Below, piece by piece: positions 18,001-21,000 of a stretch of 44,938 nucleotides of DNA; within the stretch, counting starts at the first letter, position 1, and each line of letters starts with the position of its first letter. The position numbers are program-made. Source of the DNA: a virus. Its lineage: Duplodnaviria > Heunggongvirae > Uroviricota > Caudoviricetes. Location: the IMG/VR virus record IMGVR_UViG_637000107_000005. One strand, 5' to 3'.

Positions 18001-21000
18001 GTGTTGCTGGCGGTGTGCTGGATGCAGGGAGAGTTTGACATGAGCGCCGCCACCCACGCACAGCAACCTGCGCTGTTTACAGCCATGCTGNCACAGTTTC
18101 GTGCTGACCTCTCCGTGTTTAACGCGCAGTGCCATGGTGGCAGTGCTGCAGATGTGCCGTGGATTTGTGGTGACACGACGTATTACTGGAAAAATACATA
18201 CGCTACCCAGTACNACACCGTNTACGGCGGGTATAAAAACAGGGAGAGTGAGGGCGTTTATTTTGTGCCCTTCATGACAGACGGTAACGGCGTCAATACC
18301 GCCACTAACGCGCCGGCAGAAGATCCGGATATTCCGGCATCAGGATATTACGGTGCGGCATCGAGAACGAATGGAAACCAGGTATCATCAAACCGCCCGA
18401 CACATTTCAGTTCATGGGCGCGCAGGAGCATTATTCCGGATCGTCTGGCAACCGCTATTCTGAACGCAGCCGGGCGCACCTCAGCCTTCATCAGTGGTAA
18501 GGCACCGGAAATCAAACCCTCGCCCGGCGGCAACACGCCATCGGGTCCGTCTGCAGATACGTCCGTTCGCACAATCTCCCTGCTGCCGGCAGCCGGAGAG
18601 GCTGCTGCGCAGGGCTGGAGCATTAAGGATGGCGGAATTCAGTTGTCAGATGGTGTATTTAAGATCACCAGGCAGAGCAATAAAACCTGGTCCCTGACGC
18701 ATCCGGTGGATGACGCAATTACCCTGCTGACACAGGGCGGCAGACTGACCTGTAAGTTCCGCCTGTCAGGCGCGCTGACCAACAATCAGTTCGGGCTGGG
18801 GATTTATCTGTATACGGATGCTCCCGTTCCTGATGGTGTGGCGATGACGGGTACCGGTAATCCGTTCCTGATGTCGTACTTTACTCAGACCACTGACGGC
18901 AGAGTGAATCTGATGCATCACAGGAAAGCCGGAAACACGAAGCTGGGGGAGTTCGGCGATTACGGTAACGACTGGCAGACGCTGGAGCTGGTGTTCACCG
19001 CCGGCAGTGCCACGGTTACTCCGAAACTGAATGGAGTGGCTGGCCCGGCATTCCAGGTTATAAAAGACAGTCTGACACTGGGACTGAATGCGCTGACGCT
19101 GACGGATGTTACAAAAAATGCAGCGTATGGCGTTGAGATAGAAAGTCTGGTGCTGGAGATAAATGCACCGGCAGCATAATAAAAAAAGAGCCAGCGACTG
19201 ACCTGAAAGAAGACGCTGGCTAAAAGGCCTTATATGTTTGTAGAGACTTATTTTTCACAGACAGCAATGATGCCTGTCAATATATTATCAATATGCGGAT
19301 TGTTTCAGTTACAGATGCTTTATTAAGGAAAAAAACAGCCAGCACTGACTTTCGGTGGAGAGGTGCTGGCTCAGAAGGATAGTTGGATTTCACATGATAC
19401 TTATGCCTGGCGGTATATTTTCTGACAGACAGTGACGGGTGTTGTCAAGATATTGTGTCATTTATAACCTGAATCAGGGGGTGGCCGGAATGTTATCTGG
19501 CATTTTTAGCAGAGCCTGAATGCCATAATCACGGCTCCCGGCGTTGGCCGTCAGTGGGTGACACTGGCGGCTTTTTTGTTTTTCTTTACTTTCATTTTCT
19601 GTCGGCGGTGACGGAGACATACATCAGATGGAAAAAATCACAACAGGTGTGTCATACACCACGTCAGCGGTGGGGACGGGATACTGGTTACTGCAGCTGC
19701 TGGACAAAGTCTCTCCGTCCCAGTGGGTGGCGATAGGCGTGCTGGGGAGTCTGCTGTTTGGGCTGCTGACATATCTGACGAACCTGTATTTCAAGATTAA
19801 AGAAGACCGGCGTAAGGCGGCGCGGGGAGAGTAAAGTGATGAAGAAAAAATACGAACTGGTTGTTAAAGGGATAAATAATTACCCGGATAAGATTACTGT
19901 TACTGTGGCACNGGAAATTGGTGGGTATCCGTCACTGTTGTTGCCAGATGTGGCGATTAGTCTTGACCGTACTGAAGGTGCCACGCTGGAGTTTTACGAA
20001 GCTGAGGCGAAAAAGCAGGCGAAGCAGTTTTTCATGGATGTTGCTGCCGGGTTATGTGAAGGGGATGGTCCGTTACCGGAAAAGCGTCCCGTAATTTTAG
20101 AGGCGCAGGATGTGTTGATAACCTACAGAGGAAAACTACCGGGAATAATTACGGGTTCTCTGAAGACTCCACCGCTGGCCTGAAGACTTAACATATCCAG
20201 GGATTTGAAATCGATAAACCCTGATAAATATCCATGAACGCAAAAATCAGATACGGCCTGTCGGCTGCCGTTCTGGCGCTGATTGGTGCAGGGGCGTCTG
20301 CGCCTGAAATCCTCGACCAGTTTCTGGATGAAAAGGAAGGTAACCACACCACAGCATACCGTGATGGTGCGGGTATCTGGACCATCTGCCGTGGAGCCAC
20401 CCGGGGGGATGGTAAGCCTGTTATTCCTGGCATGAAGCTGTCGAAGGAAAAATGCGACCGGGTTAACGCCATTGAGCGTGATAAGGCGCTGGCATGGGTG
20501 GAGAAAAACATCAGAGTGCCGCTGACCGAACCCCAGAAAGCGGGGATCGCGTCATTCTTGTCCGTACAACATTGGCCCCGGTAAGTGTTTCCCGTCGACG
20601 TTTTACAGACGGATTAATGCAGGAGATCGAAAAGGTGCCTGCGAAGCGATTCGCTGGTGGATTAAGGACGGTGGCAGGGACTGCCGTATTCGCTCAAATA
20701 ACTGTTACGGTCAGGTATCCCGTCGTGACCAGGAGAGCGCGCTGGCGTGCTGGGGAATCGACAGATAAGCAGAATATTTTGCTGAAAAATGAGGTTTGCT
20801 TACATGGACGGATAACACGAAATCCTGCAAATTGGCAAAATGTAAGTGAATAAAGTCAAAGCAGTTGTTTAACACTCAGGCACCGTAATGATGCCTTTGT
20901 CATTTCTGCGCATCTCACGCGCATCTCACAACACAGAACCTTTCAGGATGACCCTTGAGGATACCGGTTTGGCTGTCGGTGCCTTTCTGTGGGCTGGATT

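What the first reader, a model, noticed from the sequence alone, without database searches (positions are those of the whole stretch)
19836..20183. Unassigned 115-aa gene inserted between pinholin and SAR endolysin
Lysis cassettes are usually compact (S-R-Rz). Here an ORF with no transmembrane or enzymatic signature lies exactly between the holin and endolysin and is tightly coupled to the holin stop. It could be a lysis regulator or a moron riding the late transcript.
Basis: seen in the sequence. Interest (0 to 1): 0.5.

Follow-up and report, generated by a model that had tools for sequence, protein, structure and literature searches.

The report
YdfR (DUF1327) gene in lysis cassette
The small gene wedged between the hole-forming and wall-degrading lysis genes of this E. 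coli prophage is real and conserved, but it is the already catalogued YdfR/DUF1327 gene found in about half of all E. coli genomes, and its function is still unknown.

Summary
The ORF is real. Its likely start is ATG 19839 (114 aa), not GTG 19836. It scores Pfam DUF1327 at E=2.7e-46 and is 99% identical to proteins RefSeq calls "YdfR family protein" in phage YYZ-2008 and other Stx phages. E. coli K-12 has the same arrangement in its Qin prophage (essQ-ydfR-rrrQ).

In all 18 Escherichia/Shigella loci examined, the gene starts 4 nt after the stop of a P21-type pinholin gene. It uses the Shine-Dalgarno sequence embedded in the holin's last codons. In minimal cassettes such as 933W, that same sequence drives the endolysin. 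A 177-aa SAR lysozyme follows.

The gene is accessory: about 24% of phage records with this holin carry it. It is almost confined to Escherichia/Shigella. Only residues 1-72 are constant (three strands plus a helix, acidic, no TM segment). The window copy lacks the C-terminal module of the 183-aa form.

Purifying selection acts on the core (omega about 0.3), but it is 3-5 times weaker than on the neighbouring genes. Distant core-only homologues lie outside the S-R slot.

No fold or profile search gave a function. The only experimental lead is a 2026 report that K-12 YdfR residues 1-72 associate with RNase E and RNA. Verdict: known family, function open, modest interest.

The parts
19546..19582 (+). 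Terminator-like hairpin plus T-run upstream of the holin gene. The late transcript must read through it.
   Evidence: 11-bp stem with 7 GC pairs, followed by TTTTTGTTTT. A terminator is annotated at the equivalent place in phage 434.
19628..19834 (+). P21-type pinholin gene S, 68 codons, with a single start. The usual dual-start motif is absent (ATA CAT CAG ATG).
   Evidence: PF04971 E=7.3e-33. Comparison of upstream codons across loci.
19824..19831 (+). Shine-Dalgarno sequence GGGGAGAG embedded in the last holin codons. It serves the YdfR-family gene here. The same element serves the endolysin R in 933W.
   Evidence: dG -8.5 kcal/mol in both phages.
19839..20183 (+). YdfR-family (DUF1327) gene, 114 codons plus a TGA stop.
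   Evidence: PF07041 E=2.7e-46. PHROG 406. 99% identical to YYZ_gp44 'YdfR family protein'. dN/dS about 0.3.
19839..20063 (+). Conserved core domain, aa 1-75: three antiparallel strands plus one long helix, acidic. This is the only part shared by all family members.
   Evidence: Alignment. Member lengths range from 72 to 263 aa. AF2 pLDDT is 70-89 over this part.
20064..20180 (+). Middle module (PEKRPVILEAQDVLITYRGKLPGIITGSLKTPP..), predicted with low confidence. The ORF ends at the edge of a ~490-bp deletion that removed the helical C-terminal module of the 183-aa form.
   Evidence: pLDDT below 50. Pairwise alignment to phage 2H10.
20184..20233 (+). Conserved A/U-rich leader of the endolysin gene, ending ..CCTGATAAATATCC before the ATG. 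It has no Shine-Dalgarno sequence.
   Evidence: dG +0.6 kcal/mol in 7 of the 8 YdfR-bearing cassettes tested and +1.2 in K-12; leader alignment.
20234..20768 (+). R21-type SAR endolysin gene. In this window it is broken by one extra T at 20558/20559, which causes a frameshift.
   Evidence: PF00959. Alignment with the intact YYZ-2008 and H-19B genes. tblastn splits the match into two frames.
21039..21608 (+). Ant-like antirepressor gene inserted between R and Rz. It is a second non-lysis insertion in this cassette.
   Evidence: P22_AR_N E=1.4e-45. PHROG 524.
21762..22229 (+). Rz i-spanin gene. The embedded 61-aa ORF at 21982..22167 is in the position expected for Rz1; this assignment rests on position only and was not tested.
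   Evidence: PF03245 E=4.9e-50. ORF list.

Best explanation
This is the YdfR/DUF1327 gene of Escherichia lambdoid prophages. It encodes a small, acidic, soluble cytoplasmic protein. It is made from the late transcript, and its ribosome-binding site lies inside the end of the pinholin gene, so it is translated together with the holin. All of that is shown. It is an optional passenger of S21/R21-type lysis cassettes, not part of the core lysis machinery; this is shown by its distribution. Its working part is the 72-residue three-strand-plus-helix core, which most likely acts by binding a partner; this is inferred. The only partner reported experimentally for a family member is the catalytic N-terminal half of RNase E, with RNA co-purifying. 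My best guess is therefore that it modulates RNase E-dependent RNA fate late in infection, for example the stability or translation of the late/lysis mRNA, rather than acting on hole formation itself. That last step is inferred and is weak.
For: Identity: Pfam DUF1327 at 156 bits. 99% identical to RefSeq 'YdfR family protein' genes in YYZ-2008, Stx2a_WGPS2 and others. Same synteny as K-12 essQ-ydfR-rrrQ.

Real gene: core dN/dS has a median of 0.30 across 13 loci.

Accessory: present in 101 phage records against 427 that carry the same holin type. 933W and 434 lack it, and in 933W R uses the same start slot and SD.

Not tied to the holin: distant core-only homologues lie between tail genes M and L (L021), directly after Rz (L023), and behind an HP1-type holin (L024-27).

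The core evolves 3-6 times faster at non-synonymous sites than the flanking holin and endolysin (dN 0.27 against 0.08 and 0.04). That pattern is usual for accessory, host-directed proteins.

RNase E/RNA lead: Goepel et al. 2026 (PMC13232886). K-12 YdfR residues 1-72, exactly the conserved core, gave two-hybrid signals with Rne and Rng. Strep-YdfR co-purified Rne1-598-FLAG. DNase-resistant nucleic acid co-purified.

Against: The RNase E evidence is for a homologue whose core is only about 47% identical to the window protein. The full-length two-hybrid signal appeared only with Rne1-597. The co-purification was done from lysate without nuclease treatment, so it could be bridged by RNA. Overproduction changed few transcripts and did not affect growth.

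The core is acidic (pI 4.6-5.8), which is unusual for an RNA binder. There is no sequence-level relation to dsRBDs. No fold match was significant.

The invariant holin-coupled position in Escherichia (18 of 18 loci) would fit a lysis role equally well.
Confidence: 0.35

Rival explanations
1. It is a soluble cytoplasmic lysis-timing regulator, antiholin-like. It is made in fixed proportion to the pinholin by translational coupling. It binds a cytoplasmic part of the pinholin, for example the basic C-terminal tail, or the pre-release SAR endolysin, and delays or sharpens triggering.
For: In 18 of 18 Escherichia/Shigella loci the ATG lies exactly stop + 4 nt after a PF04971 holin gene and uses the SD inside the holin gene. 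Most of the other contexts found are still lysis cassettes: behind an HP1-type holin, and directly after Rz. The acidic core (pI about 5) faces a basic holin tail, [14 protein letters not shown], with pI 10.3. There is a precedent: P1 LydB is an antiholin without TM domains, encoded directly after and overlapping lydA (PMC9025707). In addition, the holin in this window has no dual-start antiholin form.
Against: About three quarters of phage records with the same holin type lack the gene, including 933W and 434, and 434 also has the single-start holin. YdfR alleles are shuffled independently of holin alleles. Phage Evi has a holin 98.5% identical to the window's but a core only 43% identical. 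A homologue sits in a tail-gene module with no holin nearby. There is no homology to LydB (hhalign probability 0.1%). No experiment has tested lysis timing.
Confidence: 0.3
2. It is an accessory gene with some other host- or competitor-directed role, such as anti-defence, superinfection exclusion or lysogen fitness. It simply landed in a permissive slot of the late operon and spreads by recombination between the highly conserved flanking S and R genes.
For: The range is very narrow: only Escherichia/Shigella among 185,579 species genomes, plus two MAG bins labelled otherwise, and only 55 clusters at 50% identity among 1.84 billion proteins. The architecture is mosaic, with many C-terminal variants. 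Evolution is fast relative to the neighbours. A homologue sits in a moron-like island next to a HicB-like gene in a tail module. The same cassette also hosts an Ant-like insertion. Overexpression of K-12 ydfR was reported to raise the streptomycin MIC threefold (PMC12924614).
Against: There is no hit in PADLOC. The gene has no promoter or terminator of its own, so it is not expressed independently of the lysis genes. No phenotype has been linked to it apart from screen hits.
Confidence: 0.2
3. Its main effect is in cis. By taking over the holin-embedded SD it moves the endolysin start onto an SD-less, A/U-rich leader. This lowers or delays endolysin translation, which in some variants is coupled to termination of the YdfR ORF. 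The protein itself would be of secondary importance.
For: In all 8 YdfR-bearing cassettes tested, the R start has no SD (dG +0.6 kcal/mol or higher). In 933W and 434, R has SDs of -8.5 and -7.1 kcal/mol. The 12-50 nt R leader is conserved across variants. In K-12 the ydfR stop overlaps the rrrQ start as ATGA.
Against: The core is under purifying selection at the protein level (omega 0.30, with nearly invariant residues Y5, K10, G11, R44, E46, G47 and F52-A55). A mere spacer would not need this. The distance from the YdfR stop to the R start varies from an overlap to about 650 nt in the loci examined. Core-only homologues exist away from any endolysin.
Confidence: 0.1
4. It is a decaying, functionless ORF.
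For: The window copy is a truncated derivative of the 183-aa form. Many truncated, frameshifted or IS-disrupted copies exist. The middle part is predicted to be disordered.
Against: The core was intact in all 18 Escherichia/Shigella loci sampled, including the otherwise decayed Qin prophage; frameshifted or truncated copies do occur elsewhere. Omega is 0.3. At least part of the sequence matches in 2924 of 5426 complete E. coli genomes.
Confidence: 0.05

Closest known systems
E. coli K-12 YdfR (b1555, Qin prophage; Pfam DUF1327, 'YdfR family protein')
   Same: Same Pfam family. Same position between a P21-type holin gene (essQ) and an R21-type lysozyme gene (rrrQ). Same stop + 4 nt coupling to the holin gene. 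Same beta3-alpha core.
   Different: The core is only about 47% identical. K-12 YdfR has a different 30-residue tail, and its stop overlaps the lysozyme start. The window protein instead carries the PEKRP..KTPP module and stops 50 nt before the lysozyme start.
YYZ_gp44 of phage YYZ-2008, and the unannotated S-R spacer ORF of phage H-19B
   Same: 99-100% identical protein in the same late region: esterase, holin, YdfR, lysozyme, Ant, Rz.
   Different: Those phages carry stx1 upstream; this window does not. Their endolysin gene is intact; here it has a 1-nt insertion.
183-aa YdfR-family proteins (e.g. phage 2H10 gp52, P0017)
   Same: Same core and middle module. From codon ~65 to codon ~111 the DNA is nearly identical.
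   Different: They carry an extra C-terminal helical hairpin (aa 123-182) and a ~320-nt spacer before R. In the window a ~490-bp deletion removed both.
P1 LydB and T4 RIII (soluble cytoplasmic antiholins)
   Same: These work like what a lysis-regulator reading would require. They are small proteins without TM domains. LydB is encoded immediately after and overlapping its holin gene. RIII is recalled from my own knowledge and was not tested here.
   Different: No sequence relation to LydB. There is no functional test for YdfR. YdfR is absent from most cassettes of its holin type.
Phage-encoded RNase E modulators (T7 gp0.7, T4 Srd, phiKZ Dip), from my own knowledge
   Same: They are phage proteins that act on the host RNA-decay machinery. 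A YdfR homologue co-purifies with the RNase E N-terminal half.
   Different: No homology was tested or is known. Those proteins act early or on the RNase E C-terminal domain. No effect on RNA decay has been shown for YdfR.

Membership tests
DUF1327 / YdfR family (PF07041) | Match to the Pfam model above the gathering score | tested here: met
   156.2 bits against a cut-off of 25, E=2.7e-46, covering profile positions 1-92 of 93. Also PHROG 406, E=3e-64.
DUF1327 / YdfR family (PF07041) | Near-identity to proteins annotated as YdfR family in curated records | tested here: met
   99% identical to YYZ_gp44 and Stx2a_WGPS2 'YdfR family protein'. E. coli RefSeq hits are annotated the same way.
DUF1327 / YdfR family (PF07041) | Gene order holin - YdfR - lysozyme, as in K-12 essQ-ydfR-rrrQ | tested here: met
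   Seen in 18 of 18 Escherichia/Shigella loci, including the window and K-12.
DUF1327 / YdfR family (PF07041) | Association with the RNase E N-terminal half and with RNA (reported for K-12 YdfR) | not testable with these tools
   Known only from PMC13232886. The window protein's core is about 47% identical to K-12 YdfR.
Soluble antiholin (P1 LydB type) | Sequence homology to LydB | tested here: not met
   hhalign probability 0.1%.
Soluble antiholin (P1 LydB type) | No TM domain, and encoded immediately after the holin gene and coupled to it | tested here: met
   Maximum KD19 is 1.18. The spacing is stop + 4 nt + ATG, with the SD inside the holin gene.
Soluble antiholin (P1 LydB type) | Delays holin triggering, so that loss causes premature lysis | not testable with these tools
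   No experiment exists for any DUF1327 member in the literature searched.
Moron (autonomous accessory transcription unit) | Own promoter and terminator flanking the gene | tested here: not met
   There is no promoter-like site upstream within the holin gene, and no terminator-like site between the gene and R. The intergenic gap is 4 nt.
Moron (autonomous accessory transcription unit) | Present or absent between otherwise collinear relatives | tested here: met
   933W and 434 have S directly followed by R. The gene is in 101 of 427 phage records with this holin.
dsRBD (double-stranded RNA-binding domain) | alpha-beta-beta-beta-alpha fold | tested here: inconclusive
dsRBD (double-stranded RNA-binding domain) | Sequence profile similarity | tested here: not met
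   No dsrm hit even at E up to 10.
P21-type pinholin / SAR-endolysin cassette (context) | PF04971 holin with a dual-start motif, and an intact R21-like SAR lysozyme | tested here: inconclusive
   The holin and lysozyme families are met, and the SAR N-terminus and E35/D44/T50 spacing can be read in the sequence. However, the dual start is absent, and the lysozyme has a 1-nt insertion in this window.

The most novel reading that the evidence does not exclude
The YdfR core is a new kind of small cytoplasmic regulator of pinholin/SAR-endolysin lysis. One version: it is a soluble antiholin-like timer that binds the pinholin tail. Another version: it is an RNA/RNase E-linked factor that controls translation or stability of the SD-less endolysin message it precedes. 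Either would add a regulatory layer to the lysis cassette that releases Shiga toxin.
Probability: 0.3. Interest if true: 0.6.

Novelty: already known. Interest (0 to 1): 0.3.

Why it matters
The gene sits inside the lysis cassette of many Stx1, Stx2c and other lambdoid prophages, and at least part of its sequence is matched in about half of complete E. coli genomes, K-12 included. No function has been assigned to it. If it tunes lysis timing or the fate of the late mRNA, it would affect burst size and the timing and amount of Shiga toxin release. As it stands, the finding re-identifies a catalogued domain of unknown function. What this analysis adds is descriptive: the fixed coupling to the pinholin gene, the take-over of the endolysin's ribosome-binding site, the modular and truncated architecture, and the existence of homologues outside the S-R slot.

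Tried and rejected
- **Sequence to solved structures.** A profile search found nothing at E up to 10.
- **Other libraries.** NCBIfam had no model. PADLOC defence models gave no hit. Rfam found nothing in 19000-22500.
- **Homology to P1 LydB.** Rejected.
- **dsRBD homology at sequence level.** Rejected.
- **A 3093-aa protein with 19 matched stretches** in the representative search (P0149). It is a TVTV-rich repeat protein, a compositional artefact, and was dropped.
- **183-aa family members as holin-YdfR fusions** (68 + 115 = 183). Rejected: they carry a C-terminal extension instead. A few true fusions (P0010, P0068) look like frameshift or assembly products.
- **Link between presence of the gene and loss of the holin dual start.** Rejected: K-12, 2H10 and Evi have both the gene and the dual start, while 434 has neither.
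- **Classical moron.** Rejected for lack of its own promoter and terminator.
- **Literature.** No functional study of this gene in phage lysis was found.
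Full report
**Observation**

The window holds an open frame at 19836..20183 (+). 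It lies between a 68-codon gene that matches the P21 holin S family (PF04971, E=7e-33) and a Phage_lysozyme gene.

Alignment with the two closest phages shows that the GTG at 19836 is not conserved: YYZ-2008 has GCG there. The ATG at 19839 is conserved, so the gene is 114 codons, as RefSeq annotates it in YYZ-2008.

One base in the gene is ambiguous (N at 19912, codon 25). That codon is Leu in H-19B and Pro in YYZ-2008.

The holin stop and the start are arranged as GGGGAGAG-TAA-AGTG-ATG. The Shine-Dalgarno sequence lies inside the last holin codons and pairs with the anti-SD at -8.5 kcal/mol.

The protein has no hydrophobic stretch (maximum KD19 of 1.18), has pI 5.5, and matches no enzymatic family.

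**Identity**

The protein matches Pfam DUF1327 (PF07041) at 156 bits against a cut-off of 25. It also matches PHROG 406, 'unknown function'.

The 1.6-kb S-to-R stretch is 98.7% identical to phage YYZ-2008 and 97% identical to many Stx1a phages. In YYZ-2008 the gene is annotated 'YdfR family protein'. In H-19B the same ORF lies unannotated in the S-R gap.

At DNA level, at least part of the gene is matched in 2924 of 5426 complete E. coli genomes, with up to 8 places per genome; 1258 genomes have a match covering 80% or more of it. The listed hits are annotated as YdfR family or DUF1327. E. coli K-12 has the same arrangement in the Qin prophage: essQ, ydfR, rrrQ, rzpQ. The gene is not 'unassigned'. 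It belongs to a named family of unknown function.

**Distribution**

The family is very small.
- An exhaustive HMMER pass over 1.84 billion cluster representatives found only 55 clusters.
- A scan of one genome per species (185,579 species) found it only in Escherichia coli, E. ruysiae, E. albertii and Shigella, plus two MAG bins labelled otherwise.
- In the phage collection, 101 records carry it and all are Escherichia phages. By contrast, 427 records carry the same holin type. About a quarter of such cassettes have the gene.
- 933W and 434 lack it.

**Anatomy of the slot**

I examined 18 loci: the window, YYZ-2008, H-19B, K-12 Qin, mEp460, 2H10, PhiR42_1, Evi, Stx1_14040, PhiR12_1 and eight genome loci. 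In every one, the gene's ATG lies exactly 8 nt after the last sense codon of a PF04971 holin gene, and a 177-aa R21-type lysozyme gene follows. The distance from the YdfR stop to the lysozyme start varies from an overlap to about 650 nt.

In 933W the endolysin R starts at that very position and uses the same SD. Where YdfR is present, R has lost any SD. The duplex energy is +0.6 kcal/mol or higher in all 8 cassettes tested. R is instead preceded by a conserved A/U-rich leader ending CCTGATAAATATCC. In K-12 the ydfR stop overlaps the rrrQ start as ATGA.

No promoter-like site precedes the gene on its own strand inside the holin gene, and no terminator-like site separates the gene from R. The only strong terminator-like site lies upstream of the holin gene. 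The gene is therefore an integral, translationally coupled part of the late S-R transcript. It is not an autonomous moron.

**Architecture**

Family members are 72, 103, 104, 114, 129, 169, 183, 206 or 263 aa long, and only residues 1-72 are shared.

AlphaFold2 models of the 114-aa and 183-aa forms agree on the structure:
- a three-stranded antiparallel sheet (residues 5-14, 18-27, 38-43) packed against one long helix (50-73), with pLDDT 70-89;
- a low-confidence middle region;
- in the long form only, a C-terminal helical hairpin.

The window gene is a derivative of the 183-aa type. From about codon 65 to about codon 111 its DNA is nearly identical to phage 2H10, and a ~490-bp deletion then removes the C-terminal module and the spacer down to the R leader.

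**Selection**

Pairwise Nei-Gojobori estimates over 13 loci give a median dN/dS of 0.30 for the core, 0.09 for the holin and 0.06 for the endolysin. Mean dN values are 0.27, 0.08 and 0.04 respectively.

The protein is therefore maintained by selection, but it evolves several times faster than its neighbours. Its alleles are also shuffled relative to holin alleles. For example, Evi has a holin 98.5% identical to the window's but a core only 43% identical.

**Contexts of distant homologues**

Three divergent, core-only homologues are informative.
- P0165 lies between lambda-like tail genes M and L, in an island with a HicB-like gene, in a 6.4-Mb genome (L021).
- P0160 lies directly after an Rz gene (L023).
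- P0161 lies behind an HP1-type holin (PF16080) and ahead of the same lysozyme type (L024-27).

The core is therefore portable and does not strictly need a P21-type holin. Even so, three of the four contexts are lysis cassettes.

**Function**

No search gave a function.
- The PDB profile search was empty.
- Foldseek against the PDB and BFVD found nothing significant.
- PADLOC and Rfam were empty.
- There is no sequence relation to dsRBDs or to the soluble antiholin LydB of P1.

The literature held here contains no study of this gene in lysis. The one experimental lead is Goepel et al. 2026 (PMC13232886).
- A two-hybrid screen recovered K-12 YdfR residues 1-72, which is exactly the conserved core.
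- Strep-YdfR co-purified the RNase E N-terminal half from lysates, and DNase-resistant nucleic acid came along.
- The full-length fusion reacted only with Rne1-597. No nuclease control was done for YdfR. Overproduction barely changed the transcriptome or growth.
- The same paper cites a screen that linked ydfR to envelope integrity. Because the gene sits directly upstream of a SAR lysozyme, I suspect a polar effect of the deletion cassette. This is my inference and is untested.
- A separate screen reported a threefold rise in streptomycin MIC on overexpression.

**Weighing the explanations**

The identity and the accessory status are secure. The mechanism is not.

I rank an RNA/RNase E-linked role first (about 0.35), because it is the only one with bench evidence and because the portable, fast-evolving core looks host-directed.

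A soluble antiholin-like timer is nearly as likely (about 0.3). The invariant coupling to the holin, the acidic core facing a basic holin tail, and the LydB precedent all favour it.

Some other accessory role (0.2), a mainly cis effect on endolysin translation (0.1) and a functionless ORF (0.05) follow.

**Verdict**

It is the already catalogued YdfR/DUF1327 gene, common in E. coli prophages, and nothing about this copy is unusual except that it is a truncated variant. Interest is modest. It rests on the open question of why a quarter of pinholin/SAR-endolysin cassettes carry this extra protein.

Noticed in passing
window 20553-20560 (endolysin 20234-20768): The SAR endolysin gene has one extra T (CATTCTTGTCC against CATTCTGTCC in YYZ-2008 and H-19B), which shifts the frame after codon ~108. 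The window contains 126 Ns, so this may be an assembly error rather than a true pseudogene.
   Followed up: partly
window 19619-19630: The pinholin gene lacks the dual-start motif: ATA CAT CAG ATG here, against ATG TAC CAG ATG in 933W and ATG AAA TCN ATG in K-12 and 2H10. Only the 68-aa form can be made, so there is no built-in antiholin isoform. The same is true of YYZ-2008, H-19B, Stx1_14040 and phage 434.
   Followed up: partly
window 20184-20233, and R leaders of L002-L025: In every YdfR-bearing cassette the endolysin start has no Shine-Dalgarno sequence and is preceded by a conserved A/U-rich leader (..CCTGATAAATATCC-ATG). In 933W and 434, R has a strong SD. How R is translated in these cassettes is unclear.
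   Followed up: partly
window 16251-17328: Only about 1.08 kb separates the Q antiterminator gene (15429-16250) from the NanS-p-like esterase gene (17329-19179). It has no similarity to the stx1 region of YYZ-2008 and no tRNA genes. This prophage therefore appears to be an stx-negative relative of Stx1 phages.
   Followed up: partly
window 21039-21608: A P22 Ant-like antirepressor gene sits between R and Rz, as in 933W. It is a second non-lysis insertion in the same cassette.
   Followed up: no
L005 2350-2673; L009 2458-2718 (-); L007 2044-2340 (-); L024 4465-4725 (-): In phages with longer YdfR-to-R spacers, the spacer often carries an antisense ORF of about 86-98 aa (annotated as DUF1823-containing in PhiR12_1; it had no Pfam hit in my scan of L024). 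It also carries a GC-rich inverted repeat, GCCAGTGCCCACCACTGGC. Both are missing from the window because of the ~490-bp deletion.
   Followed up: no
L021 1-8219 (GCA_016865525.2, CP075169.1): A 72-aa core-only DUF1327 homologue lies 28 nt upstream of tail gene L. It sits in a ~4-kb island between tail genes M and L that also holds a HicB-like gene and an ORF6N-domain gene. This is a non-lysis context for the family.
   Followed up: partly
window 19912: The ambiguous base in codon 25 of the YdfR gene coincides with a Leu/Pro polymorphism between H-19B (CTG) and YYZ-2008 (CCG). This suggests the window may be a consensus of more than one prophage copy.
   Followed up: no
window 19839-20063 compared with L008/L009: Between the closest allele types (window against Stx1_14040 and PhiR12_1), the core shows dN at or above dS (0.09 against 0.04, and 0.086 against 0.077). 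The counts are too small to claim positive selection.
   Followed up: no
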